From: Schaalia odontolytica
GTDB lineage: Bacteria > Actinomycetota > Actinomycetes > Actinomycetales > Actinomycetaceae
Length of the DNA: 32,000 bases
Assembly (NCBI RefSeq): GCF_005696695.1
Contig: NZ_CP040006.1
Location: 1,740,001-1,772,000 of the forward strand
Direction of reading: 5' to 3'
The notes under the pieces are model-generated. The model ran no database searches and was not told where the DNA came from. It saw nothing but the letters and a program-made list of their open reading frames with translations. Shown here one piece after another: positions 4,813-27,682 of the stretch. The number at the start of each line of letters is the position of its first letter. Positions within the stretch are counted from its first letter, which is position 1. The translations under genes and the position numbers were made by a program.

Positions 4813-5205
4813 TCAGCGGGACTGACCGTCCCCCTGATGGGATGCCTCGAGAGCATCGACGCGGCGCTGCAGATCCTCCACCTGAAGGCGCAGAATCGCG
4901 GCCTCCTCGGTCAAGCGACGACGATCCTCGTCCGAACGCGACAGGTCCACCGAGAAACGCAGCGACAGGAGCAGCAGCACCACACCCGCCACGAAGAACC
5001 CGAGATTCAGCGGAACGACAACGCCCAGCTGGATCGCACTCCACTTCAGGATCGGCGGGAAGATGGACAGCAGCGCCGTGAAGAAGGCGATGCAGTACCA
5101 CCACAGGCCGTAGCGTTCCTTCAGGCCCGAGTTACGCATCTTGACGAACACCATCACCAGGATGATGATCGCGAACACCAGTCCAAGCACGTACGTGGGG
5201 CTCAT
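4813..5205 (-). CDS. DUF2304-family small membrane protein (partner of the upstream GT2)
   Basis: 130 aa with three hydrophobic helices followed by a charged coiled-coil tail (RRLTEEAAILRLQVEDLQRRVDALE). The start overlaps the GT2 stop (5202-5205). Confidence 0.8.
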   Translation of the reverse strand: MSPTYVLGLVFAIIILVMVFVKMRNSGLKERYGLWWYCIAFFTALLSIFPPILKWSAIQLGVVVPLNLGFFVAGVVLLLLSLRFSVDLSRSDEDRRRLTEEAAILRLQVEDLQRRVDALEASHQGDGQSR

Positions 5206-5957
5206 GCATTCTCCTCCGGCGCCTGGGTGACCTTCTCTCCGGGGCGCGACAGCGAAACCGCGAGGGCCATCGTCGCGCGCACCAGGAAGAGCGCCGATTT
5301 GATCGGGTTGTGGGAGGGCTCGCCGCCCGCGCGCGGGTGCATCTGCACGCCGACCTCGCGCACGACCAGGTGCGAGCGTGCCGCAATGACGAGCGCACCG
5401 ATCGTGTCACCCAAGTACTCGGCCGGGTAGTTGCGCGCGAAGAGCGAGAGCGCACGAGGACCGTAGAGCTTGAAACCGCTGGTCGTATCGCTCAAATGAG
5501 TCTCACACACGCGCGAGAGGATGAACGAGAAAAGGTTCATCGCCCACTTGCGCGGGCCCCGCGCGTGGTAGTTGCCCTTACCCGCGAAACGCGAGCCAAT
5601 GACGACGTCCGCGTGCTCGCTCGAGGCCGTCTCGATGAGCGTCTCGATCTCTCGCGGGTCGTGCTGGCCATCCGCGTCGAGCTGACACGCATACTCGTAG
5701 CCCATGCGCCGCGCGTACTGGAAGCCGGCGCGCATCGCGCCACCGACCCCCAGGTTGAGCGGCAGGTCGAGGACGGCCACGCCCGCGGCGCGCGCGATAT
5801 CGGCGGTCGCGTCCGTCGACCCGTCGGAGACCACGAGGATGTCCGCGAATGAAGGCTTCTCAACCTTCACCATCTCGAGGACGTCACCGAGCACCTCCTC
5901 CTCGTTCCACGCGGGGATAACGATGAGCAGGCGGGACTGAGCACTGGGACGGCTCAC
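5202..5957 (-). CDS. Family 2 glycosyltransferase (polyprenol-phosphate glycosyltransferase-like)
   Basis: 251 aa with the GT-A signatures LLIVIPAWNEEE, ILVVSDGSTDAT and QLDADGQHDP. It abuts the rmlA stop (5958). Confidence 0.9.
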   Translation of the reverse strand: MSRPSAQSRLLIVIPAWNEEEVLGDVLEMVKVEKPSFADILVVSDGSTDATADIARAAGVAVLDLPLNLGVGGAMRAGFQYARRMGYEYACQLDADGQHDPREIETLIETASSEHADVVIGSRFAGKGNYHARGPRKWAMNLFSFILSRVCETHLSDTTSGFKLYGPRALSLFARNYPAEYLGDTIGALVIAARSHLVVREVGVQMHPRAGGEPSHNPIKSALFLVRATMALAVSLSRPGEKVTQAPEENA

Positions 5958-7025: not shown

Positions 7026-8453
7026 ATGGCGCCCACCGCTAAGCCCCTGGGGATTACGACCACGCCGATCCCCGGCTTTTTGCGCATTGATCTGACTGTT
7101 CACGGCGATAACCGAGGCTGGTTCAAGGAGAATTGGCAGCGCGAGAAGATGGTCGCGCTGGGCCTGCCGGATTTCCAGCCCGTGCAGAACAACATCTCGT
7201 TCAACGACGAGGTCGGGGTGACGCGAGGCATTCACGCGGAGCCGTGGGATAAGTTCGTGTCGGTCGCGACCGGCCGCGTGTTTGGCGCGTGGGTGGACCT
7301 GCGCGAGGGCCCGTCCTTCGGCACCGTCTACACGACGATCATCGATCCGGGCGTCGCGGTGTTCGTCCCCAAGGGCGTGGGCAACTCCTACCAGACCCTG
7401 GAGCCGAACACGGCCTACACGTACCTGGTCAACGACCACTGGTCGCCGGACGCGCGCTACACCTTCCTGAACCTGGCTGACGAGACGGCCGCCGTGGATT
7501 GGCCGATCCCGCTCGAGCGCGCCATCCTGTCCGACAAGGACAAGGCACACCCGCGCATGGCGGAGGTGACCCCCTTCCCTGCCCCGGCTCCCGTGGGTCG
7601 CCGCGCGCTCGTGACGGGCGCGAACGGCCAGCTCGGCCGCGAGCTCATGCGCGCGCTGCCCGAGGCAGGCTTCACGGTGACGGGCGTGGACCTGCCCGAG
7701 GTGTCGATTTCCGACGCCGAGCAGGTGGCCACTCTGCCGTGGGATGACATCGACGTGGTGATCAACGCGGCCGCGTGGACGAACGTCGACGGCGCTGAGA
7801 CGCCCGAGGGTCGCCGCGCGACCTGGCAGGCGAACTCGACGGGCCCGGCGATCCTGGCCCGCGAGGCCACGGCTCACGGCGCGACGATGGTTCACATCTC
7901 GACGGAGTACGTCTTCGATGGCACGCAGGACGTGCACCTCGAGGACGAGGCCCCCTCTCCCCTGGGCGCGTACGGCCAGTCGAAGGCGGGCGGCGACGCC
8001 GCTGTGGCCTCGACGCCGAAGCACTACATCGTGCGCACCTCCTGGGTTGTGGGCGACGGCAAGAACTTCCTGAAGACCATGGCATCCCTGGCAGATCAGG
8101 GCACTTCCCCCTCGGTCGTGTCCGACCAGGTGGGCCGCCTGACCTTCACCTCCGACCTGGCCAAGGGCATCATTCACCTACTGACCAGCGACGCCCCGTT
8201 TGGCACCTACAACCTGTCGGGCGAGGGACCGGTCATGAGCTGGGCGCAGATCGCCAAGCGCGTGTTCGAGCTGTGCGGCCGCAATCCGGAAGACGTCACC
8301 GAGGTGACGACGGAGGAGTACTTCGCGGGCCGCGAGGTGGCTCCGCGCCCCCTGTCCTCCGTCCTCGACCTGACGAAGATCAAGGCCGCGGGCTTCACCC
8401 CCGAGGATTCCTCGCAGCGCATCGACTCCTACGTCGCTTCCCTGCGCGGCTGA
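7026..8453 (+). CDS. rmlCD: Bifunctional dTDP-4-dehydrorhamnose 3,5-epimerase / dTDP-4-dehydrorhamnose reductase (RmlC-RmlD fusion)
   Basis: 475 aa. The N-terminal ~190 aa are an RmlC-like cupin (HGDNRGWFKENW, RGIHAEPWDKFVSV). From about residue 192 (nt ~7600) there is an RmlD-type Rossmann domain (ALVTGANGQLGRELMRAL, STEYVFDG, YGQSK). SD AAGGAAG lies upstream of the ATG at 7026. Confidence 0.9.
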   Translation: MAPTAKPLGITTTPIPGFLRIDLTVHGDNRGWFKENWQREKMVALGLPDFQPVQNNISFNDEVGVTRGIHAEPWDKFVSVATGRVFGAWVDLREGPSFGTVYTTIIDPGVAVFVPKGVGNSYQTLEPNTAYTYLVNDHWSPDARYTFLNLADETAAVDWPIPLERAILSDKDKAHPRMAEVTPFPAPAPVGRRALVTGANGQLGRELMRALPEAGFTVTGVDLPEVSISDAEQVATLPWDDIDVVINAAAWTNVDGAETPEGRRATWQANSTGPAILAREATAHGATMVHISTEYVFDGTQDVHLEDEAPSPLGAYGQSKAGGDAAVASTPKHYIVRTSWVVGDGKNFLKTMASLADQGTSPSVVSDQVGRLTFTSDLAKGIIHLLTSDAPFGTYNLSGEGPVMSWAQIAKRVFELCGRNPEDVTEVTTEEYFAGREVAPRPLSSVLDLTKIKAAGFTPEDSSQRIDSYVASLRG

Positions 8454-8559: not shown

Positions 8560-9051
8560 TCAGAGCAGCTGGCTGAGGATCTCCTGTGAACCGTGGATCT
8601 CCTTCACTTGAGCGACGAGCACGTCTGCGAGCTTCTTCGCCGCTACGTACTGCGTTGATTCGACGCCGTAGCGACTCGCGATGTCCGCAAGGCGCGCAGG
8701 GATGGTCGTGGCGCTGCCATCCTTCGATGTCAACATGTCCGCCAGGTTAAGCACCAGGAGTTCATCCGACTGGTAGGAGCTGTCGGGATCGCCGTGATGG
8801 AAGATCTCCGCCCAGTACGCGAACCCCAGGGAGCGCAGCAGCGCACCTCCGAGTTCCTCGTGCTCTGACTGTTCCTGAGCGAATTGATAGCCGACATCGT
8901 GCAGGTAGCCCATCACGAACATCTCGCGGCACTTGTCGTCCGACCAACCAAACAGGGCGCGCCCCAGCTCGGAGGCCTTCATGCCCACGCCGCGGCAGTG
9001 GCGCAAGCGGTTGTCGTCCATGCCGATTGCCGGCGTCGAGTCATTCATCAT
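8560..9051 (-). CDS. Small HD-domain metal-dependent phosphohydrolase (third gene of the island operon)
   Basis: 163 aa. HD-superfamily residues are spaced as H18 (RLRHCRGV), H51-D52 (GYLHDVGY), H64 (SEHEELG), H85/H86 and D104 (LNLADML). The ATG at 9051 overlaps the upstream stop as ATGA, and an SD (AAAGGA) lies at 9056-9061. Confidence 0.8.
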   Translation of the reverse strand: MMNDSTPAIGMDDNRLRHCRGVGMKASELGRALFGWSDDKCREMFVMGYLHDVGYQFAQEQSEHEELGGALLRSLGFAYWAEIFHHGDPDSSYQSDELLVLNLADMLTSKDGSATTIPARLADIASRYGVESTQYVAAKKLADVLVAQVKEIHGSQEILSQLL

Positions 9052-9935
9052 GCGATCCTTTGCGTGCCGTCGGCCAGATACCGCAGGAGATCCTCAAGCC
9101 TGCGACGCTGAGAGTCAGCGAGGCGCAGATCGAGGAGATTCTCCTTGAGTACCCATCGGAAACCCGTGGATTCAGAGTCGAGGGACACCTCGTGACCCTC
9201 GGACACCCCGTGAAACACGACGGTGAACTCCTGGCGCACTTCCCCATCAGAGTATGCGATGCGCACGTCCGGGTCCGTGTAGGTGCCGACAATCCCGGTC
9301 ACCCGCACGTCGAGGCCGGTCTCCTCCTTGAGCTCGCGGACCGCGCACTCGGCCAGGCTTTCGCCGAATTCAAGGGTGCCGCCCGGGAGCGTCCAATTCC
9401 CGCTGTCCCGGCGCTGGAGCATGAGGATGTGCCCCTCGCGCTCGATGGCGACCGCTGCAGCAGGGACGATCGAGTTGGCGGCCGGCGCATCGGGAGCGTG
9501 GGAGTAGTCCACGCGCGTGGTTCTCAGGGCCGAGGCCAGCCACGCCTCGACATCTGGGCCGGGGGTGACGACATTCTTGTCGTTCGTGGAGGGAACCTTG
9601 ATGAAGAGGATCTGCGTCCCCCGCTTCGAGCGCTGCGCGTATGTCGTCCCGGGTTCGATGACGTAGAAGTCGCCCGCACGGAACTCATGCTCCTCGCCGG
9701 TGTCCGTATCCAGGTACTGCGTCCACCCCGACAGCATGTACTGGTACTCGGTGGCCTGCGTATGAAAGTGCGGCTGCTCGCTCGCGTCGTCGGAATAGGA
9801 CGTGATCCCGATTTCAAGATCACTCGTGTCGTAGTGCGCGACCGCCTGCGGCCGAGAGAGGTTGCCCGCCAGGTACTGGCGCGACACGTGCTCCAGCGCC
9901 TGCCGGATCTCGCCTGACGTGATGGTGGAGAACAT
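9048..9935 (-). CDS. Cupin-domain / NUDIX hydrolase fusion protein (second gene of the island operon)
   Basis: The N-terminal half carries cupin motif 1, HFHTQATEYQYMLSG (HxHx4Ex6G). The C-terminal half carries a perfect NUDIX box, GTLEFGESLAECAVRELKEETGL (Gx5Ex7REUxEExGU, nt 9312-9380). I chose the start at ATG 9935 because it lies 8 nt after the SD AAGGAGG. An alternative ATG at 9941 overlaps the upstream stop as ATGA. Confidence 0.85.
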   Translation of the reverse strand: MFSTITSGEIRQALEHVSRQYLAGNLSRPQAVAHYDTSDLEIGITSYSDDASEQPHFHTQATEYQYMLSGWTQYLDTDTGEEHEFRAGDFYVIEPGTTYAQRSKRGTQILFIKVPSTNDKNVVTPGPDVEAWLASALRTTRVDYSHAPDAPAANSIVPAAAVAIEREGHILMLQRRDSGNWTLPGGTLEFGESLAECAVRELKEETGLDVRVTGIVGTYTDPDVRIAYSDGEVRQEFTVVFHGVSEGHEVSLDSESTGFRWVLKENLLDLRLADSQRRRLEDLLRYLADGTQRIA

Positions 9936-9937
9936 CG

Positions 9938-11218
9938 TCATCGCCTCCTTGGGGCCTTGTGTCGACTCTTCCTCAGCTGGCGCCTCAAGACAACGAGAAC
10001 GCCGATCGCGACGACCACACTCGCCAGGCACAGGGCGAGCACGAACCAGAGCGAGGGAAGAGTTTCGCCCTGGTTGAGGCCAATGATGGACATCGAGAAG
10101 AAAGAGATGATGAGCGTCGGGACGAAAAAGACTGCGGACGCGAAAGTGAGGAAGGTGTTCGTTCGTTCTGCGGCCTCGGCGTTTTCCTGGTTCGCGACGG
10201 CCTGGACGGACTGAGCGGTGTTCGCGAGCAGGCCGGACGCCCGCTCGAGCAGCCGTCGGTATTCTTCGATCGTCGCCTTGAGTTCGGCGACCTTGTGCGT
10301 CGCGAGGCTCTGCAGGGCCTCGTTCCCGGTCACGAGTTCGTTGACCTTGGAACGGCGTTCGAGGTTCCTGGACACGAGGAACGCCGTCGTCACGAACTGG
10401 GAGAGCACGCCGATTTCTCGCTGCGCCCGCCCGAGGCGCTGCGCGGCTTCTTCCGAGTCATCGCTGATCATGATCTGGAAGGGTTCGTTCTCCCAGAATT
10501 CGAACTCAATCCGCCAGTTCTCGAGGTTGTATTGCTCGTATTTGATGGGGATCGAGAACGCCTCAACGATGTTGCCCACGTCCGACGGCTCCGTGAAGTA
10601 CCCCTGCCCGCGGTTCAGCCAGATGCCGTTGTGCGGCCAGCGAAGGTTGTCGAGCTGGTCTGGCGAAACCGGCTGATAGATCGAGACGGTGCCGTTGCCC
10701 ATATCGAAAATCCGGCACCAGCGATGAAGGGCACGAAGCGGCTCGGAGGTATCACCGGAACGGGCCGGCAGGTTCTGGGTCAGCAGATCGACGTATGCAA
10801 TGCGCGTGTCGGCATCGATCTGCAGGGGCACGTTCGTTTTGTTCGCAGACACCCGCTGGATCATCTCCGGCATGGAAGCCATCAGCGCGTGAGCGACGGT
10901 CGGCGCCATGAGCTTTTCGAGGAGCGAGGAGATTTCGCCGTCGTGCGCACCATCGAGCGACACCTCGAGCTCGTACCTGTCGATGTCGCTCCACGGGTCC
11001 TCACGATGGGTTTCTGCGTCGATGGAGCAGTAGCGGTAGCTTTCGCCATCGTCCAGCAGGGGCAGAACGATCGGATTCTCGAACTCCATGGCCCGGCGAT
11101 GCCATCCGGACAGAATGACTGCCTGCGTCCCATCCGCGTACTGGCACTTCAGCAGGAAGCTCGGGCCCGCGTCCCAAAGCTGAGGATCAGACGCGTACGT
11201 CTTGCTGTAGGAGCACAT
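9938..11218 (-). CDS. CorA-architecture membrane protein: soluble N-terminal domain of unknown function, helical stalk and 2 C-terminal TM helices, with GLN replacing the GMN motif (first gene of the island operon)
   Basis: ORF 9938..11251 trimmed to ATG 11218 (MCSYSK.., SD GGAGGT 9 nt upstream). The C-terminus reads NTFLTFASAVFFVPTLIISFFSMSIIGLNQGETLPSLWFVLALCLASVVVAIGVLVVLRRQLRKSRHKAPRRR. This parallels the CorA layout of TM1, a G-M-N loop, TM2 and a basic tail. It is preceded by about 100 aa of predicted long helices (residues ~266-365). Confidence 0.7.
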   Translation of the reverse strand: MCSYSKTYASDPQLWDAGPSFLLKCQYADGTQAVILSGWHRRAMEFENPIVLPLLDDGESYRYCSIDAETHREDPWSDIDRYELEVSLDGAHDGEISSLLEKLMAPTVAHALMASMPEMIQRVSANKTNVPLQIDADTRIAYVDLLTQNLPARSGDTSEPLRALHRWCRIFDMGNGTVSIYQPVSPDQLDNLRWPHNGIWLNRGQGYFTEPSDVGNIVEAFSIPIKYEQYNLENWRIEFEFWENEPFQIMISDDSEEAAQRLGRAQREIGVLSQFVTTAFLVSRNLERRSKVNELVTGNEALQSLATHKVAELKATIEEYRRLLERASGLLANTAQSVQAVANQENAEAAERTNTFLTFASAVFFVPTLIISFFSMSIIGLNQGETLPSLWFVLALCLASVVVAIGVLVVLRRQLRKSRHKAPRRR

Positions 11219-11313
11219 CGCCCGGGCACCTCCATTCACAGTCGTTGACACGTAGTTGTCCGCAGCTCACGCGGCCCACAGCACGAGGCCGTGGGAACAC
11301 ACCGCTCTTTGAG

Positions 11314-11373: not shown

Positions 11374-11423
11374 ACGAGGCCGGGGCCAGCCACGCTGAAT
11401 CGCGCAGCCAGCCCCGGCCTCGT
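11374..11423 (-). terminator. Intrinsic terminator of the autolysin gene
   Basis: 13-bp stem, ACGAGGCCGGGGC / GCCCCGGCCTCGT, around a 24-nt loop. On the minus strand it is followed by TTTATCT, and it begins 14 nt after the stop at 11437. Confidence 0.7.
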
Positions 11424-11436
11424 CACAGAAGAACTC

Positions 11437-13497
11437 TCAGAAGTATGCCTTCATCATGGAGACCAGGTCGTAGCCGTAGTTCTTTGCGGCAGCCCAGCCG
11501 GTGCGGTTGGGGTTCTCCTGAATGCCCAGGTACTCGACCACGGGGGCCGCACCCTTGCGCACGTAGGTGAAGCGCGGGTCGACGACCGTGTTTGCGAGCG
11601 ACGCCGTGGTCACCGAGGAGTCCGCGTAGGCGCGCAGGTGCTGCACCTGGGCGCGGATGCCGGTGCGCACGTCCGGGAACGAGGCACCCTTCGCGCCGCC
11701 GCCGACCGCGCCAATGCCGGAGAAGTTGTACTGGCTGACGGTCACGTCGCCGCCGAATCGCAGCCAGCCCGTCTCCTTCATCGCCTGGACGAAGACCAGC
11801 TCGGGGGACACACCCTCGGCCACGGCCTCGTCGTAGACGATGGACGCGAAGTCGCGGATCGTCGGCGCACCGCCAGCGGCCAGCGCGCTCGGGTAGCTGT
11901 ATCCAGCCTGATCCCAGGCGTCTTCCATCGCGTCGATGGTCTCCGAGCGCGAGGCGGTGGGCGCGCTCATGATGAGGCGCTGACCGGACGCGTTCGTGAC
12001 AGAGGCGCTGCGCGAGGCGCTGCGGGAGGCCGCCGGAGCCTCGCTGCCATCCGCGTAGCCGAGCCACGCGCCGGAGGAAGCGAAGTTCGATGCGCGACCC
12101 TCGACGGTGACCGTGCCCGTCGCCATGGCACCCGAGTTCGGGTCCAGCCAGTACCAGGCGCCATCCAGGAGCCAGCCGGTGCTCATCGCGCCGGAGGAGT
12201 TCAGGTGGTACCAGGTGTCGCCCACCTTGGTCCAGCCGGTCATCATGGCGCCCTCACCATCCAGGTAGTACCACTTGCCGGCGTCGAGGAGCCAGCCGGT
12301 GACCATCTGGCCGCTTGAACGCATGTAGTACCAGCGGTTGTCATCCTCAGTCAGCTGCCAGCCGGTGAGCATGCGCGCGTCGTCATCAAAGAGGTACCAG
12401 GCGCCATCAACGTTGGTCCAGCCAATCGCGGCCGCACCGTTGACGCGCAGCCAGTACCAGTTGTTGCCATCCTTGAGCCAGCCGGTAACCATGACGCCGT
12501 CGGCGTTCATGTAGTACCAGGAGCCGGCGTCCTTCACCCAGCCGGTGGCCATGTCGCCGTCGGGACGCAGGTAGTACCACTTGCCGTCTTCCTTCTTCCA
12601 GCCCGTCACCATGGCGGTGGAGTCGTCGAAGAAGTAGCGGCGTCCGTTGATGGTGGACCATCCGCGGATCGTCTGCTTGTTGGAGCCAGCCCAGTACCAG
12701 CGGCCACCGGCAGAGAACCAGCCGGTCTTGGCTTCGCCGTTGGAGATGAAGCTCCAGGAGTCGCCCGTGGCGCGCCAGGTGCCCTTGCTCAGCCCGTAGG
12801 CCTGGGCGATGCCGGTCGCGTCGGCGACACCGAGGGAGCGCACGAAGCTCTCGTTGCGCAGGAGGGCCGCGTCGGATGCGGAGGTCACGAAAGCGTGCTC
12901 AACGATGACGCCGGTCATATTCTCTTCGCGAGCCTGGCGGATGACCGCGTAGTAGTCGCCGGTCGAGCCGTCCGGGTAGTCGTAGTAGGGGTTGTCACGC
13001 GTCTTGATGCCGCGATCAGCCAGCCCGAGGCCGGTGAGCTGCTTCTGGATCGCGTTGGACAGGGTGCGGCCCTGCGTGTGGGTGCCGTAGTTGTACGAGG
13101 AGGAATTCGGGTACCAGACCTCGGCACCCTTCGCGATGGGCGCGCCCGAGTTGAAGTGGATGGAGACGAGGGCGTCCGCATCCTCCGCAGCCGCCATCTC
13201 GACGCGGCTGGACAGGTCGGCGCTGGTGTTTTCCGAGGGACGAGTGTCCGTCGTGCGGGTCATAACGACGCGCACACCGTCGTAGCTTTCCAGCTCTTCC
13301 TTCAGTGCCAGGGAGACCGCGAGGGTCAGGTCCTTTTCACGCAGGCCGTTGGCGACCGCGCCAGGGTCGGAGCCGCCGTGCCCGGGGTCGATGGCAATCG
13401 TGATACCTGCTGCGTGCGCCGGCGGCACCAGGGCCGCTGCGGCTGCGCCGAGGGCCAGGGTGAGCCCGGCGACGATGGTCCTCCACGAGGAGCGCAT
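11437..13497 (-). CDS. Secreted bifunctional autolysin: N-acetylmuramoyl-L-alanine amidase (Amidase_3) + cell-wall-binding repeats + C-terminal N-acetylglucosaminidase-like domain
   Basis: 686 aa with a signal peptide (MRSSWRTIVAGLTLALGAAAAALVPPAHA). The Amidase_3 start is ITIAIDPGHGGSDPGAV, with ..SIHFNS.. and ..VIVEHAF.. following. Ten to eleven GW-anchored 20-aa repeats follow. After a Ser/Arg linker (SRSASRSAS) comes a glucosaminidase-like domain (ELVFVQAMKETGWLRFGG, NFSGIGA). SD GAAGGA lies upstream of the ATG at 13497. Confidence 0.9.
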   Translation of the reverse strand: MRSSWRTIVAGLTLALGAAAAALVPPAHAAGITIAIDPGHGGSDPGAVANGLREKDLTLAVSLALKEELESYDGVRVVMTRTTDTRPSENTSADLSSRVEMAAAEDADALVSIHFNSGAPIAKGAEVWYPNSSSYNYGTHTQGRTLSNAIQKQLTGLGLADRGIKTRDNPYYDYPDGSTGDYYAVIRQAREENMTGVIVEHAFVTSASDAALLRNESFVRSLGVADATGIAQAYGLSKGTWRATGDSWSFISNGEAKTGWFSAGGRWYWAGSNKQTIRGWSTINGRRYFFDDSTAMVTGWKKEDGKWYYLRPDGDMATGWVKDAGSWYYMNADGVMVTGWLKDGNNWYWLRVNGAAAIGWTNVDGAWYLFDDDARMLTGWQLTEDDNRWYYMRSSGQMVTGWLLDAGKWYYLDGEGAMMTGWTKVGDTWYHLNSSGAMSTGWLLDGAWYWLDPNSGAMATGTVTVEGRASNFASSGAWLGYADGSEAPAASRSASRSASVTNASGQRLIMSAPTASRSETIDAMEDAWDQAGYSYPSALAAGGAPTIRDFASIVYDEAVAEGVSPELVFVQAMKETGWLRFGGDVTVSQYNFSGIGAVGGGAKGASFPDVRTGIRAQVQHLRAYADSSVTTASLANTVVDPRFTYVRKGAAPVVEYLGIQENPNRTGWAAAKNYGYDLVSMMKAYF
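12103..12777 (-). repeat. Tandem in-frame ~60-nt repeats encoding cell-wall-binding (choline-binding-type, CW_binding) modules
   Basis: The xGW anchors fall at residues 260, 280, 300, 320, 340, 360, 380, 402, 422 and 442 of the autolysin (e.g. GWVKDAGSWYYMNADGVMVTGW). At the DNA level CCAGCCGGT recurs about every 60 nt. Confidence 0.9.
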
Positions 13498-22749: not shown

Positions 22750-23448
22750 ATGTGCGACACTATTCAAATGCAGATCGGCTCCGACACGTGGGTGGTGATC
22801 CCAGCGTTCAACGAGGCGTCCGTCATCGGGGGCGTCGTCGCGGGAGTCCGCACCTTTTTTCCACGTGTCCTCGTCGTCGATGACGCTTCGAGCGACAACA
22901 CCGCCGCCGTCGCCCGCGCCGCAGGGGCATACACCGCGACACACCCGCTCAACCTTGGGCAGGGCGCCGCCCTCCAAACCGGATTCGATGCAGCCCTCGC
23001 CCGCGGGGCGCGATACGTGGTCACCTTCGATGCCGACGGCCAGCACGACCCCGCAGAGGCGGCGGCCATGGTCGAGCGGGCACTCCGGGAGGATCTCGCG
23101 TTCGTCCTCGGCTCTCGTTTTCTGTCGGGATCCCCGTCGTCGGCGGGTAGGGTCAAACGCGCCATGCTGCGACTCGGAGCTTTGGTGGCCCGGCTGCGCA
23201 CGGGCTTGGATCTCACGGACACTCACAACGGGCTGCGCGTGATCCGCGCCGACGCCCTCGCCCACGTGCATCTCACCCACGCACGCATGGCCCACGCCTC
23301 GCAGATCGTCTCCCAGCTGGCCGCCTGTGGCCTGCCCGGCGCCGAGCACCCGGTGACGATTTCCTACACGGACTATTCGCGGGCGAAGGGCCAGCCTCTG
23401 CTCAACTCCGTCAACATCGTCGTCGACCTCGCGTTGGGGGGACGATGA
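22750..23448 (+). CDS. Family 2 glycosyltransferase (paralog of 5202..5957)
   Basis: 232 aa with WVVIPAFNEASV, VLVVDDASSDNT and TFDADGQHDP. An alternative ATG at 22768 is equally possible. Confidence 0.88.
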   Translation: MCDTIQMQIGSDTWVVIPAFNEASVIGGVVAGVRTFFPRVLVVDDASSDNTAAVARAAGAYTATHPLNLGQGAALQTGFDAALARGARYVVTFDADGQHDPAEAAAMVERALREDLAFVLGSRFLSGSPSSAGRVKRAMLRLGALVARLRTGLDLTDTHNGLRVIRADALAHVHLTHARMAHASQIVSQLAACGLPGAEHPVTISYTDYSRAKGQPLLNSVNIVVDLALGGR

Positions 23449-23915
23449 GCGCCTACCTCGCCATCCGCATCCTCCTGCTCCTCGCCCTCGCGCTCACCGC
23501 GTGGTGGCTGGTGCGCCCGGTCTCCTCGGCCTCGTCGCTCGCGTTGCGCCGCATCGGCATCGGAGCGGTCGTCGCTGCGGCTATCGTGGCCATCCTCGTG
23601 CCCTCGCTGGCCAACACGGCTGCCCGCGCGGTCGGCGTTGAGCGAGGGGTCAACCTGATCGTCTACGGCCTCGTTATTGCGTTGATCGCGCAGATGGTGA
23701 CCGGCTATCGGCGCGAGGCCCGCGCCGAGGAGCGCATGGCTACCCTGGCCCGCTCCCTCGCCCTCGCACACATCCTTCCGCCCGACGATCCGGGGGATGC
23801 GAGCACCGAGACGGGCAGCTCACACGCTGATACGAGCGGAGTGGAACGCGCCGCTAACGGCCCTGCTTCACCGACAAACACGCCAGATAACGATATGGTT
23901 ACGAATGATGAGTAA
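23445..23915 (+). CDS. DUF2304-family small membrane protein (paralog of 4813..5205)
   Basis: 156 aa with three hydrophobic helices, a charged helix (YRREARAEERMATLARSLA) and an acidic tail. The ATG overlaps the GT2 stop as ATGA (23445-23448). Confidence 0.75.
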   Translation: MSAYLAIRILLLLALALTAWWLVRPVSSASSLALRRIGIGAVVAAAIVAILVPSLANTAARAVGVERGVNLIVYGLVIALIAQMVTGYRREARAEERMATLARSLALAHILPPDDPGDASTETGSSHADTSGVERAANGPASPTNTPDNDMVTNDE

Positions 23916-26686: not shown

Positions 26687-27682
26687 TCAGGAGCCGGGAA
26701 CGGTGATCGGGCGCGGACCCGCCTGCCAGCCCTCCCAGGCGGAGGTGAGGATCTCGTCGAGGCCGTTGTTGGCCTTCCATCCCAGGTCCACGCCGATGGA
26801 CAGCGGATCGCCGATCAGCTTGGGCGGGTCGCCCGCACGGCGGTCCAGCTCCTCGACCGGGAAGTCCCAGCCGATGACGCGGCGCAGGCCGTCGATGATC
26901 TCGCGGACGGAGGTGCCCAGGCCGGTGCCCACGTTGTAGGTGTGGTGGTCGGGCTGGCGCCCCTCGGCGAGCACGTCGAGGGCTGCGATGTGTGCCTCGG
27001 CCAGGTCCAGGACGTGGATGTAGTCGCGCACGCAGGTGCCGTCCGGGGTGTCGTAGTCGGTGCCGAAGATCTTGGCGCTCTCCCCGCGCTCGATGCGGTC
27101 GAGGACCATGGGGATCAGGTTCATGATGGCCGGGTCGGCCAGGTCGGGCCAGCCGGCGCCCGCGACGTTGAAGTAGCGCAGGCCGATCCACTTCAGGTCC
27201 CAGGCGCGCTCGCAGTCGGCCATCATCCACTCGCCGATCAGCTTGGTCTCGCCGTAGGGGTTGATGGGGTAGCCGGCCATGTCCTCGGTGACGACTTCGG
27301 CGGTGGGGATGCCGTAGACGGCGGCCGACGAGGAGAAGATCATCTGGTCGACGCCGGCGTCCTCCATGGCGGCCAGCACGTTCGCCATGCCACCGATGTT
27401 CTGCTGGTAGTACCAGGTGGGGCGTGCGACGGACTCGCCGACCTGCTTGCGCGCGGAGAAGTGGATGACGGCCGTGACGTCCTCGTCCACCATGAGGTTG
27501 GAGAGAACGGAACGGGCTTCATCGGTAGCGACATCGAGGCGAACCAGGGGCGTGTCCCCGATCCTGGCCGCGTTGGAAGTGGACAGGTCGTCGACGACGA
27601 CGACGCGATCCCCGCGCTGACGCAGGAGGCGGACAACGTGTGCGCCGATGTAGCCGGCGCCGCCACAAACGAGAATGCTCAT
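26687..27682 (-). CDS. galE: UDP-glucose 4-epimerase
   Basis: 331 aa: MSILVCGGAGYIGAHVV (GxxGxxG) and a YxxxK catalytic motif (NPYGETKLIGE), with full-length GalE-like sequence. Confidence 0.95.
   Translation of the reverse strand: MSILVCGGAGYIGAHVVRLLRQRGDRVVVVDDLSTSNAARIGDTPLVRLDVATDEARSVLSNLMVDEDVTAVIHFSARKQVGESVARPTWYYQQNIGGMANVLAAMEDAGVDQMIFSSSAAVYGIPTAEVVTEDMAGYPINPYGETKLIGEWMMADCERAWDLKWIGLRYFNVAGAGWPDLADPAIMNLIPMVLDRIERGESAKIFGTDYDTPDGTCVRDYIHVLDLAEAHIAALDVLAEGRQPDHHTYNVGTGLGTSVREIIDGLRRVIGWDFPVEELDRRAGDPPKLIGDPLSIGVDLGWKANNGLDEILTSAWEGWQAGPRPITVPGS

What the first reader, a model, noticed from the sequence alone, without database searches (positions are those of the whole stretch)
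9938..11218. CorA-architecture protein with GLN in place of the GMN selectivity motif and an unassignable N-terminal domain
Seen: the C-terminus reads ERTNTFLTFASAVFFVPTLIISFFSMSIIGLNQGETLPSLWFVLALCLASVVVAIGVLVVLRRQLRKSRHKAPRRR. That is TM1 (nt ~10082-10156), G-L-N (nt 10073-10081), a short loop, TM2 and a poly-basic tail, the same order as CorA (..YGMNF.. loop, TM2, basic sphincter). Upstream lie about 100 residues of heptad-like helices (EEAAQRLGRAQREIGVLSQ...KVAELKATIEEYRRLLERASGLL), comparable to the CorA stalk. Before that is a Trp/aromatic-rich domain of about 255 aa (WPHNGIWLNRGQGYF, NLENWRIEFEFWENEPFQIM) in which I cannot place any family motif. Established: the GMN motif is essential for Mg2+ selectivity in canonical CorA, and family members with altered motifs transport other ions or have non-transport roles. 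Inference: this is a sensor-gated pore rather than a housekeeping Mg2+ channel.
Basis: partly seen in the sequence, partly recalled or inferred. Interest (0 to 1): 0.7.

Follow-up and report, generated by a model that had tools for sequence, protein, structure and literature searches.

The report
CorA-like pore gene with Nudix/HD partners
This gene encodes a rare, divergent relative of the CorA magnesium channel that has lost the channel's ion-selecting motif. It is welded into a small operon with two nucleotide-cleaving enzymes, one of which elsewhere partners bacterial immune sensors, so it looks like a candidate membrane immune effector rather than a magnesium transporter.

Summary
The ORF is real: minus strand, 9938-11218, 426 aa, under purifying selection.

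- **The motif is mis-registered.** G380-L381-N382 lies in the poorly conserved periplasmic loop. The residues that align with CorA's G-M-N are S375-M376-S377. S375 and M376 are invariant in the family, and a sister clade has G-A-N at that position.
- **The N-terminal domain can be assigned by structure.** Sequence searches find nothing for it. A confident AlphaFold model (pLDDT 87) matches only CorA structures, over almost its whole length.

So this is a full CorA-fold protein without a GxN filter. It belongs to a very rare actinobacterial family: 56 clusters among 5.8 billion proteins, and 17 of 185,579 species genomes.

It is the first gene of a translationally coupled cassette: CorA-like, then cupin-Nudix, then HD. 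The cassette recurs with unrelated flanking genes in Schaalia, Corynebacterium, Lawsonella and Coriobacteriaceae.

Full-length relatives of the cupin-Nudix (53-63% identical among those listed) are far more numerous. In 4 of 4 sampled cases they sit directly behind TIR-STAND-TPR immune-type proteins.

My best reading (about 0.45) is a conflict or defence module: a ligand-gated, non-selective CorA-type pore with its own ligand-degrading hydrolases, analogous to CRISPR CorA plus NrN. A sister clade coupled to IspF and a glycosyltransferase keeps a metabolic or cell-envelope role alive as a rival.

The parts
9938..11218 (-). CorA-like protein CDS (426 aa; stop TGA 9940-9938). The ATG at 11218 is preferred over the GTG at 11251.
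   Evidence: ORF list and sequence. Homologues all begin MxxYxxTY at this ATG. Pfam CorA 29.6 bits. AF2 plus Foldseek give the CorA fold. dN/dS about 0.1.
11229..11233 (-). GGAGG ribosome-binding site, 10 nt upstream of the ATG
   Evidence: Read directly from the sequence.
10574..11218 (-). N-terminal alpha/beta cytoplasmic domain (aa 1-215). It carries the family motifs GWHxR (38-42), RVSANK (122-127; consensus RVSANR), DLLTQNLPARSG (144-155), RWCRIF (166-171) and LRWPHNGIWLNRG (192-204).
   Evidence: Secondary-structure order in the model matches the order recalled for the CorA cytosolic domain. Foldseek hits are CorA only. No sequence-level family hit.
10328..10570 (-). Two long cytoplasmic helices (aa 217-297), in the position of CorA helices alpha5/alpha6. 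They contain YNLENWRIEFEFWEN (230-244) and RNLERR (284-289).
   Evidence: Model helices H217-243, H245-250, H255-292 and H294-297. Conservation.
10079..10321 (-). Continuous 81-residue stalk helix running into TM1 (aa 300-380). TM1 is about aa 354-379 (nt 10082-10159).
   Evidence: Model helix H300-380. TM1 is the most conserved region of the family, with a mean top-residue frequency of 0.80.
10088..10096 (-). S375-M376-S377: the true positional equivalent of the CorA G-M-N motif
   Evidence: Ungapped phmmer alignment to MjCorA IYGMN. S375 and M376 are invariant and S377 is 23/29. The sister clade has G-A-N in the same columns.
10073..10081 (-). It is a variable start of the periplasmic loop.
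   Evidence: G 20/29, L 10/29, N 11/29. The loop (aa 380-389) has mean conservation 0.43.
9941..10051 (-). TM2 (aa 390-411) and the poly-basic cytoplasmic tail (aa 412-426)
   Evidence: Model helix H390-420. Sequence read.
9048..9941 (-). Cupin-Nudix fusion protein CDS (297 aa). The ATG at 9941 overlaps the CorA-like stop (ATGA). A second in-frame ATG at 9935 lies 8 nt after GGAGG (9948-9944). The cupin HxH..E motif is at aa 58-65. An intact Nudix box is at aa 187-209 (nt 9315-9383).
   Evidence: Pfam NUDIX 74.9 bits plus Cupin_2/3/1. Invariant H58, H60, E65, G187, E203, E206 and E207. AF2 pLDDT 92.4. It follows the CorA-like gene wherever the contig extends in the main branch.
8560..9051 (-). 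HD-domain phosphohydrolase CDS (163 aa; H18, H51-D52). Its ATG at 9051 overlaps the Nudix stop (ATGA).
   Evidence: Pfam HD 27.3 bits, cut-off 22. Present in Schaalia, Corynebacterium and two actinomycete MAG loci. Absent in Lawsonella and Coriobacteriaceae.
11375..11422 (-). Strong hairpin terminator of the upstream amidase gene. It marks the 5' boundary of the cassette's transcription unit.
   Evidence: 20-bp stem with 15 GC pairs, followed by a T-rich tail.

Best explanation
**Shown**
- The gene encodes a complete CorA-fold protein: a cytoplasmic alpha/beta domain, long helices, an 81-residue stalk helix continuous with TM1, and TM2.
- It belongs to a rare actinobacterial clade in which the GxN filter position reads S-M-S.
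- It is the first gene of a translationally coupled cassette: CorA-like, then cupin-Nudix, then HD. The cassette travels as a unit between unrelated chromosomal sites.
- Close full-length relatives of the cupin-Nudix are otherwise coupled to TIR-STAND-TPR immune-type proteins.

**Inferred**
- The cassette is a biological-conflict (anti-phage or abortive-infection type) module.
- The CorA-like protein is its membrane effector, presumably a pentameric pore that is no longer Mg2+-selective.
- Its large cytoplasmic domain has nine invariant arginines plus invariant Glu/Asp/His within the family. I infer that this domain binds an anionic nucleotide-type ligand of the NDP-X class; ADP-ribose-like is my guess.
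- Ligand binding would open the pore and collapse the membrane potential or ion balance.
- The active Nudix (NDP-X to NMP + P-X) and the HD phosphohydrolase would destroy that ligand. This would hold the pore shut at rest and reset it afterwards, as NrN or SAM-AMP lyase do for the type III CRISPR CorA effector.
- The source of the ligand is not encoded in the cassette and is unknown.
For: **Fold and motif**
- AF2 pLDDT 87.3, pTM 0.77.
- The 50 listed Foldseek PDB hits (of 57 at E<=0.001) are all CorA; best E-value 2e-8.
- GMN register.
- TM1 is the most conserved segment, as expected for a working pore helix.

**Rarity and mobility**
- 56 clusters, 95 representatives among 1.84 billion, and 17 species genomes.
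- Flanking genes are unrelated in C. casei, C. pelargi, Lawsonella, Coriobacteriaceae and Schaalia.

**Coupling**
- ATGA overlaps in the window, and 1-8 nt overlaps in L001 and L007.
- All three genes are under purifying selection.

**Partner enzymes**
- The Nudix box and cupin metal motif are invariant.
- The cupin-Nudix family has at least 648 members.
- Four of four sampled non-CorA contexts (L109, L110, L111/112, L117) place it 12-18 nt after, or overlapping by 4 nt, a 944-997 aa TIR_2 + NPHP3_N/AAA_16 (+TPR in some) protein. These sit beside further TIR proteins.
- Those partner proteins hit PADLOC TIR-containing models (4 of 4) and the Avs1b model (2 of 4).
- Nudix-only relatives lie in a plasmid region with FtsK/SpoIIIE, GntR and transposase genes, and in a plasmid Nudix-GntR-HD trio.

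**Precedents**
- CRISPR CorA effectors are obligately paired with signal-degrading NrN, DEDD or SAM-lyase enzymes (PMC10600005).
- Nudix domains are tied to NAD+/ADPr conflict systems (PMC7159879).
- Plant NUDT7 dampens TIR-NLR signalling (bioRxiv 10.1101/2021.11.09.467869).
Against: - The cassette and the 32-kb window contain no signal generator and no recognisable phage sensor.
- PADLOC gives only weak hits limited to the TM region.
- No copy lies in a recognisable defence island, phage, or plasmid.
- In Schaalia the cassette is fixed inside a cell-wall polysaccharide locus.
- The sister clade, and the P0056 member (32% identical; the only one of its group whose flanks were read), are coupled to a genuine-scoring IspF. 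The sister clade also has an orthologous GT2. This looks metabolic, not immune.
- The Nudix substrate cannot be inferred: Foldseek hits span CDP-, UDP-, Ap4A-, ADPR- and NTP-specific enzymes with similar scores.
- Pentamer formation, ligand binding and conduction are untested.
Confidence: 0.45

Rival explanations
1. Cell-envelope or metabolite-linked channel or sensor. The family's cytoplasmic domain monitors an NDP-X or cyclodiphosphate intermediate, such as an NDP-sugar, CDP-ME2P or MEcPP. The coupled enzyme sets the level of that intermediate: IspF in the sister clade, cupin-Nudix plus HD here. The membrane domain adjusts ion flux, or exports something, in step with wall-polymer or isoprenoid precursor supply.
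For: - The sister clade shows GT2 - CorA-like(YGAN) - IspF in L026, L027 and L029, and GT2 - CorA-like - LytR_C in L028.
- Two of the three linked IspF genes were scanned (L026, L029); both pass the NCBIfam equivalog-domain cut-off, at 155-161 bits against 116.
- The GT2s of L026 and L027 are 49% identical to each other.
- P0056, the most divergent hit (32% identical), is also followed by IspF.
- The window cassette lies inside a ~22 kb rhamnose-type wall polysaccharide locus, between fused rmlCD and an autolysin, and it is fixed there in the 11 Schaalia-like loci L009-L019.
- The C. pelargi copy lies near PS_pyruv_trans and an NTP_transferase.
- Cupin folds commonly bind sugars, and Nudix enzymes hydrolyse NDP-sugars (general knowledge).
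Against: - The same cupin-Nudix family is overwhelmingly attached to TIR-STAND-TPR genes. That is hard to fit with wall-precursor housekeeping.
- The window's GT2 is unrelated to the sister-clade GT2.
- The C. casei, Lawsonella and Coriobacteriaceae copies have no envelope genes nearby.
- The extreme rarity argues against a general housekeeping role.
Confidence: 0.27
2. Ordinary divalent-cation transporter, as NCBI annotates its relatives ('CorA family divalent cation transporter'). It may be specialised for another metal (Mn2+, Zn2+, Co2+, Ni2+) that the co-transcribed metal-dependent hydrolases need.
For: - CorA fold and a Pfam hit above threshold.
- The sister clade retains a GxN motif, G-A-N.
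- The periplasmic loop is rich in acidic residues.
- Nudix, HD, cupin and IspF are all metalloenzymes (general knowledge).
- Sources name relatives CorA family transporters.
Against: - The G and N of GxN are both replaced (S-M-S), and this is invariant in the clade. Established mutagenesis of CorA indicates GMN is essential for Mg2+ transport (from my own knowledge).
- No NCBIfam transporter model matches.
- A profile of the family finds no CorA in the PDB by sequence.
- There is no precedent for translational coupling of a metal channel to Nudix/HD genes.
- The Nudix partner functions without any channel in TIR-STAND loci.
Confidence: 0.13
3. One reading: G-L-N is a variant selectivity filter (GMN to GLN) that retunes ion selectivity in the way GxN variants do in ZntB-type proteins.
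For: The tripeptide exists at the C-terminal end of the predicted TM1 helix, which ends at residue 380. G..N occurs at these positions in about a third of family members.
Against: - It is not conserved: sequences read GLE, GSE, GTD, DSE, ETG, NEG and others.
- It is offset by five residues from the GMN columns in every alignment.
- The loop is among the least conserved parts of the protein.
Confidence: 0.04

Closest known systems
Type III CRISPR-associated CorA effector with NrN / DEDD / SAM-AMP lyase (Bacteroides fragilis Cmr system; PMC10600005)
   Same: - A divergent CorA-family membrane protein whose only sequence-detectable CorA similarity is the C-terminal TM region.
- A large, distinct cytoplasmic domain with conserved arginines.
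- Obligate pairing with a small-molecule-degrading phosphoesterase gene.
- Proposed pentameric ligand-gated pore.
   Different: - No cas10, cas genes or CRISPR array in the window.
- PADLOC CorA models match only aa 332-416, so the cytoplasmic domains are not detectably homologous.
- The partners are cupin-Nudix and HD, not DHH/DEDD/lyase.
- No signal synthase is linked.
- The ligand is unknown.
Canonical CorA Mg2+ channel (T. maritima, M. jannaschii, E. coli; Pfam PF01544, MIT superfamily)
   Same: - Overall predicted fold over nearly the full length.
- Long stalk helix continuous with TM1, two C-terminal TM helices, and a basic cytoplasmic end.
- The conserved P-x-x-x-x-x-x-[FY]-x-M core of TM1 aligns without gaps.
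   Different: - G-M-N is replaced by S-M-S.
- The MPEL-type loop is absent.
- About 10-14% identity.
- The cytoplasmic domain is about 70 residues longer and has a wholly different conserved motif set.
- Operon-coupled to hydrolases.
- Extremely rare.
Sister clade of uncharacterised actinobacterial 'YGAN' CorA-like proteins (e.g. Nakamurella antarctica EH165_00070, P0145)
   Same: - Homologous over the whole cytoplasmic domain and TM1 (hhalign probability 99.95%, E 6e-38).
- Shares E47, D144, R166, H196, Y230, E238, R321 and the SANR, LPxR and RWPH motifs.
- Also translationally coupled to an enzyme that cleaves an NDP-X pyrophosphate.
   Different: - Keeps a GxN motif (G-A-N).
- Has extra C-terminal TM helices (450-512 aa).
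- The partners are IspF and a GT2 rather than cupin-Nudix and HD.
TIR-STAND-TPR + cupin-Nudix gene pairs of Actinomycetota (uncharacterised; loci L109-L112, L117)
   Same: Closely related cupin-Nudix (55-60% identical, full length), placed immediately downstream of and coupled to a large upstream gene.
   Different: The upstream gene is a cytoplasmic TIR-NTPase-repeat sensor/effector instead of a CorA-fold membrane protein. No HD gene was found there by tblastn.
Eukaryotic TRPM2 (ADP-ribose-gated cation channel with a NUDT9-homology Nudix domain). This is a functional analogy from my own knowledge; it was not tested.
   Same: A cation-channel function physically tied to a Nudix module that recognises or hydrolyses the gating nucleotide.
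   Different: Unrelated channel fold. In TRPM2 the Nudix domain is fused to the channel, whereas here it is a separate gene. ADP-ribose as the ligand is only a guess here.

Membership tests
CorA / MIT superfamily (Pfam PF01544) | Profile match at or above Pfam's gathering score | tested here: met
   29.6 bits against a cut-off of 27. The match covers only aa 304-413, profile positions 185-292, so it is marginal.
CorA / MIT superfamily (Pfam PF01544) | Two C-terminal TM helices, the first continuous with a very long stalk helix | tested here: met
   Model helices H300-380 and H390-420 at pLDDT mostly 73-98 (one 10-residue block at 65).
CorA / MIT superfamily (Pfam PF01544) | N-terminal alpha/beta/alpha cytoplasmic domain followed by two long helices | tested here: met
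   Foldseek gives only CorA entries among the top 50, with about 400-430 aligned columns. It includes the E. coli cytosolic domain 5n77_A, target-normalised TM-score 0.54. The secondary-structure order fits the CorA order recalled from memory. Residue-level superposition could not be inspected.
CorA / MIT superfamily (Pfam PF01544) | Homopentameric funnel | not testable with these tools
   Only monomer prediction was available.
Mg2+-transporting CorA (and GxN transporters such as ZntB) | G-M-N (or G-x-N) at the periplasmic end of TM1 | tested here: not met
   The aligned positions are S375-M376-S377, with S and M invariant.
Mg2+-transporting CorA (and GxN transporters such as ZntB) | Divalent-cation transport activity | not testable with these tools
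   Needs complementation or flux assays.
Type III CRISPR-associated CorA effector | Encoded in a type III CRISPR-cas locus with cas10 | tested here: not met
   No cas or CRISPR genes among the window's genes, nor in the flanks of homologous loci.
Type III CRISPR-associated CorA effector | Adjacent NrN (DHH), DEDD nuclease or SAM-AMP lyase | tested here: not met
   The neighbours are a cupin-Nudix and an HD protein.
Type III CRISPR-associated CorA effector | Homologous cytoplasmic (SAM-AMP-binding) domain | tested here: not met
   PADLOC CorA HMMs (446-457 positions) match only their last ~90 positions, at E 3e-5 and 8e-3.
Recognised anti-phage defence system (PADLOC-DB v2) | Significant full-length match of the cassette's proteins to a catalogued system | tested here: not met
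   The CorA-like protein gives only the TM-region hit. The Nudix domain hits candidate PDC-S07 (2e-13, domain only). The HD gives a weak Cas3-HD hit at 0.004.

The most novel reading that the evidence does not exclude
The clade is a CRISPR-independent, nucleotide-gated CorA-type pore: a bacterial counterpart of 'channel plus Nudix' systems. Its cytoplasmic domain would recognise an NDP-X signal, such as a TIR- or NADase-derived ADP-ribose species or, given the IspF-coupled relatives, a cyclodiphosphate such as MEcPP. Its dedicated Nudix and HD enzymes would set the threshold. This would define a new three-gene immune or stress module and a second, independent recruitment of the CorA fold as a ligand-gated effector.
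Probability: 0.3. Interest if true: 0.8.

Novelty: new variant of a known kind. Interest (0 to 1): 0.62.

Why it matters
CorA-family proteins were long read as magnesium channels. The CRISPR-associated CorA showed that the fold can be re-used as a signal-gated membrane effector, always paired with an enzyme that destroys the signal.

This cassette would be a second, CRISPR-independent example, with a different cytoplasmic domain and different hydrolases.

It also connects two otherwise separate observations: an uncharacterised cupin-Nudix that accompanies hundreds of TIR-STAND immune-type genes in Actinomycetota, and a membrane pore.

If the ligand were identified, it would say what that widespread Nudix acts on, and so what those TIR-STAND systems produce.

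It also matters for annotation. Relatives are labelled 'CorA family divalent cation transporter', which the S-M-S motif makes doubtful.

Tried and rejected
- **Family profile against PDB sequences.** Only chance coiled-coil hits, and no CorA. The CorA relationship rests on Pfam, one weak phmmer alignment and the predicted fold.
- **NCBIfam on the CorA-like protein.** Nothing.
- **Plasmid collection, by DNA and by protein.** No CorA-like copy.
- **IMG/VR scan.** No CorA-like copy, and only two Nudix-only relatives.
- **BFVD fold search.** One phage CorA and nothing else.
- **JGI metagenome scan with the sister-clade profile.** Two true relatives. The other 78 loci matched only the C-terminal CorA-like region (query residues ~211-425). 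An earlier attempt failed because no block was conserved enough.
- **Foldseek and PDB sequence search on the cupin-Nudix.** Hundreds of Nudix enzymes with near-equal scores. No substrate call is possible, and the CDP-Chase top hit is not discriminating.
- **PDB and NCBIfam on the HD protein.** Uninformative.
- **Is the window's GT2 (5202-5957) the counterpart of the sister-clade GT2?** No similarity.
- **Literature searches.** Searches for CorA + Nudix + defence, ispF + CorA-like, and Nudix + TIR + STAND + cupin found no description of this cassette.
- **GTG start at 11251.** Rejected in favour of the ATG at 11218. Homologues start at the ATG, and a GGAGG precedes it.
- **429-aa antisense ORF (9959..11248, plus strand).** Rejected as a high-GC shadow ORF.
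Full report
**1. The observation**

The window is high-GC actinobacterial DNA. It is 90-97% identical and syntenic to Schaalia/Pauljensenia (oral Actinomycetaceae) contigs.

An ORF runs on the minus strand from 11218 (ATG, preceded by GGAGG at 11233-11229) to the TGA at 9940-9938. G-L-N is at nt 10081-10073. TM1 is at about 10159-10082.

The gene is real:
- It has the third-position GC bias of the neighbouring genes.
- dN/dS is 0.08-0.12 against four Schaalia orthologues.
- It has 56 homologous clusters in a 5.8-billion-protein collection.
- Pfam CorA matches residues 304-413 just above threshold, 29.6 against 27 bits.

**2. Two corrections**

*The GMN register is wrong.* phmmer aligns TFLTFASAVFFVPTLIISFFSMSIIGL with KILTMVTTIFAVPMWITGIYGMNFSYL of M. 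jannaschii CorA without a gap. G-M-N therefore falls on S375-M376-S377.

In an alignment of 29 family members the string P-T-L-I-I-S-F-[FY]-S-M-S-I-I is almost invariant. S375 and M376 are 29/29. In contrast G380 is 20/29, L381 10/29 and N382 11/29; other members read GLE, GSE, GTD, DSE, ETG and so on.

A sister clade found with a profile search of 1.84 billion representatives has V-Y-G-A-N-x-x-E-L in exactly these columns. Profile-profile alignment of the two clades (probability 99.95%, E 6e-38) ends with ISFFSMS opposite GVYGAN.

TM1 is the most conserved part of the protein (0.80). The loop holding GLN is among the least conserved (0.43).

*The N-terminal domain is unassignable only at the sequence level.* Pfam, NCBIfam and a family profile against all PDB sequences give nothing.

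An AlphaFold2 model built on the family alignment is confident (pLDDT 87.3, pTM 0.77). It shows a beta-rich alpha/beta domain, two long helices, an 81-residue helix running into TM1, and TM2.

The 50 Foldseek PDB hits shown (of 57 at E<=0.001) are all CorA, from T. maritima, M. jannaschii and E. coli. Their E-values run from 2e-8 to 2e-5, and the full-length CorA chains among them align over about 400-430 columns. They include the isolated E. coli cytosolic domain 5n77_A at a target-normalised TM-score of 0.54.

The protein is therefore a complete CorA-superfamily member with a family-specific, very strongly conserved cytoplasmic face. Its motifs are GWHxR, RVSANR, NLPARSG, RWCRIF, LRWPHNGIWLNRG and YNLENWRIEFEFWEN. 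Nine arginines are invariant within the clade. E47, D144, R166, H196, Y230, E238 and R321 are invariant even across the sister clade.

**3. The surroundings**

The stop codon overlaps the ATG of a 297-aa cupin-Nudix fusion (ATGA at 9941-9938). The stop of that gene overlaps the ATG of a 163-aa HD-domain protein (ATGA at 9051-9048).

The Nudix box and the cupin HxH..E metal motif are invariant in the family. The HD protein has its H...HD residues. A strong terminator hairpin of the upstream autolysin gene (11422-11375) marks the start of the unit.

The trio lies in the middle of a ~22 kb wall-polysaccharide locus. That locus holds rmlA, fused rmlCD, rmlB, several glycosyltransferases, a flippase-type protein, two LCP ligases and two GT2+DUF2304 pairs.

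**4. Relatives elsewhere**

The CorA-like family is very rare: 17 of 185,579 species-representative genomes, all Actinomycetota.

Wherever the contig continues, the cupin-Nudix gene follows directly. This holds in the Schaalia group, C. casei, C. pelargi, Lawsonella, a Coriobacteriaceae MAG and two further actinomycete MAGs. The HD gene follows in all but Lawsonella and the Coriobacteriaceae MAG. The flanking genes are different in every genus, so the genes move as a cassette.

No copy was found on plasmids or in viral contigs.

The cupin-Nudix family is at least ten times larger than the CorA-like family and highly conserved: at least 648 hits, with the 25 aligned members (top full-length hits) showing 65% mean column identity.

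I sampled four full-length relatives (55-60% identical) that are not next to a CorA-like gene. All four lie 12-18 nt after, or overlap by 4 nt, a 944-997-residue protein with TIR_2, a STAND-type NTPase (NPHP3_N/AAA_16) and, in two cases, faint TPR hits. These sit in neighbourhoods with further TIR-kinase, TIR-WD40, DUF4062-STAND or Card1-like genes. All four proteins hit PADLOC's TIR-containing models. Two also hit the Avs1b STAND model, at E 2e-9 and 3e-11.

A rough NJ tree places the five known CorA-linked Nudix proteins other than the window's own lineage in one group, apart from the four sampled TIR-linked ones. The window's lineage (window, P0147) forms a separate branch at the base of the tree.

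Nudix-only relatives (45-50% identical to aa 143-287) occur in two other settings. One is a plasmid region of Streptomyces with FtsK/SpoIIIE, GntR and transposase genes. From memory, this resembles the pSAM2 immunity factor Pif. The other is a Nudix-GntR-HD trio on Thermoactinomyces plasmid pTvu19, whose HD is distantly related to the window's HD.

The sister clade tells a different story. In four independent loci the 'YGAN' CorA-like gene has a GT2 immediately upstream; the two compared (L026, L027) are 49% identical to each other, and the L026 copy is unrelated to the window's GT2. In three of these loci an overlapping IspF gene follows, and the two scanned (L026, L029) pass NCBIfam's ispF cut-off. 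P0056, the most divergent hit (32% identical), is also followed by an overlapping IspF.

**5. How it most likely works**

Shown: a CorA-fold membrane protein lacking the GxN filter, locked by translational coupling to two active-looking phosphohydrolases. One of these belongs to a family whose usual partner is a TIR-STAND immune-type protein.

Inferred: the cassette is a conflict module. The CorA-like protein would be a ligand-gated, non-selective pore. The Nudix and HD enzymes would remove the gating nucleotide.

This is the logic established for the type III CRISPR CorA effector. [quoted passage not shown] Nudix domains are a recurrent part of NAD+/ADP-ribose conflict systems (PMC7159879). 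A plant Nudix, NUDT7, restrains TIR-NLR signalling.

The many invariant arginines fit an anionic nucleotide ligand. ADP-ribose-like is my guess from the TIR link, not a result. I put this model at about 0.45.

**6. Rivals**

*Metabolic or envelope role (about 0.27).* This is supported by the IspF/GT2 coupling of relatives and by the cassette's position in a wall-polysaccharide locus. The common denominator of IspF and Nudix is cleavage of an NDP-X pyrophosphate, so the cytoplasmic domain could sense such a metabolite.

*Plain divalent-cation transporter supplying metal to the hydrolases (about 0.13).* It fits the fold and the annotation, but not S-M-S, the rarity, or the channel-free TIR-STAND context of the Nudix.

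**7. Comparison with what is known, and novelty**

Membership of the CorA superfamily is supported by the Pfam threshold, the fold and the TM architecture. Membership of the Mg2+-transporting GMN group and of the CRISPR-CorA group is not, because defining features were tested and not met.

Searches of the held literature found no description of a CorA-like/cupin-Nudix/HD cassette, or of the TIR-STAND/cupin-Nudix pairing.

I rate it a new variant of a known kind: a CorA-fold effector plus a signal-degrading enzyme. Interest is moderate to high. The mechanism is unproven and the IspF link is unexplained.

Noticed in passing
L003:7240-7370 (Lawsonella clevelandensis-type contig): The Lawsonella orthologue (420 aa, the same product on more than 900 contigs) stops right after TM1, at 'gat aaa aaa tag'. 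A TM2 plus basic tail (LLPSGSVFILVICLITSFIALGIYWAVCSSHRRRRKQ) is readable in the -1 frame immediately downstream. This could be a fixed frameshift, phase variation at the A6 tract, or programmed -1 slippage.
   Followed up: partly
L003:2806-4104: Lawsonella carries a second CorA-like paralogue, 25% identical, 2 kb upstream of the cassette next to a GntR gene. Its TM1 end has neither GxN nor S-M-S.
   Followed up: partly
L026:6177-8918, L027:3323-6132, L029:4038-6988, L028:6259-8353, L006:67-1724: The sister clade of CorA-like proteins (G-A-N motif, extra C-terminal TM helices) is flanked by an upstream GT2 (L026 and L027 copies 49% identical) and, overlapping its stop, an IspF (two of the three scored; both pass the ispF cut-off). 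This is an unexplained, conserved linkage of a CorA-fold protein to the MEP pathway enzyme.
   Followed up: partly
L109:2996-6897, L110:3148-6897, L111:3011-6897, L117:4035-7906: An uncharacterised two-gene unit, TIR-STAND(-TPR) followed by a tightly coupled cupin-Nudix, appears to be common in Actinomycetota. It sits among other TIR-kinase, TIR-WD40 and STAND genes. It looks like an undescribed accessory of TIR-NLR-type defence.
   Followed up: partly
L113:4721-6576 (Thermoactinomyces vulgaris plasmid pTvu19); L114:3004-6381 (Streptomyces plasmid): Stand-alone Nudix genes, 45-50% identical to the window's Nudix domain, occur in two settings. One is a Nudix-GntR-HD trio on a small plasmid. The other is next to XRE, GntR and FtsK/SpoIIIE genes on a Streptomyces plasmid, an arrangement reminiscent of the pSAM2 pif immunity gene (recalled from memory).
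   Followed up: partly
L016, L013, L019: Records labelled Sanguibacter keddieii 250_SKED, Arachnia sp. MAG and Xylanimonas sp. MAG carry DNA 90-95% identical to this Schaalia locus, and L016 and L019 are syntenic beyond the cassette. These are probably mislabelled or contaminated assemblies.
   Followed up: no
L018:5001-7169, L019:3437-4449; proteins P0045, P0053: Some MAG copies show frameshifts within the CorA-like and Nudix genes, or apparent CorA-Nudix fusion ORFs of 509-550 aa. These are likely assembly errors, or occasionally pseudogenes.
   Followed up: no
window 4813-5957 (-) and 22750-23915 (+): Two separate GT2 + DUF2304 gene pairs sit in one wall-polysaccharide locus. The locus also has a fused rmlC-rmlD gene (7026-8453) and an rmlB placed 18 kb away (26687-27682).
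   Followed up: no
window 9959-11248 (+): A 429-aa ORF lies antisense to the CorA-like gene. It has the wrong codon-position GC pattern, so it is a shadow ORF typical of high-GC DNA.
   Followed up: yes
window 11437-13497 (-): A large autolysin combines an Amidase_3 domain, choline-binding-type wall repeats and a glucosaminidase domain. It lies directly upstream of the cassette and ends in a 20-bp hairpin terminator (11422-11375).
   Followed up: no
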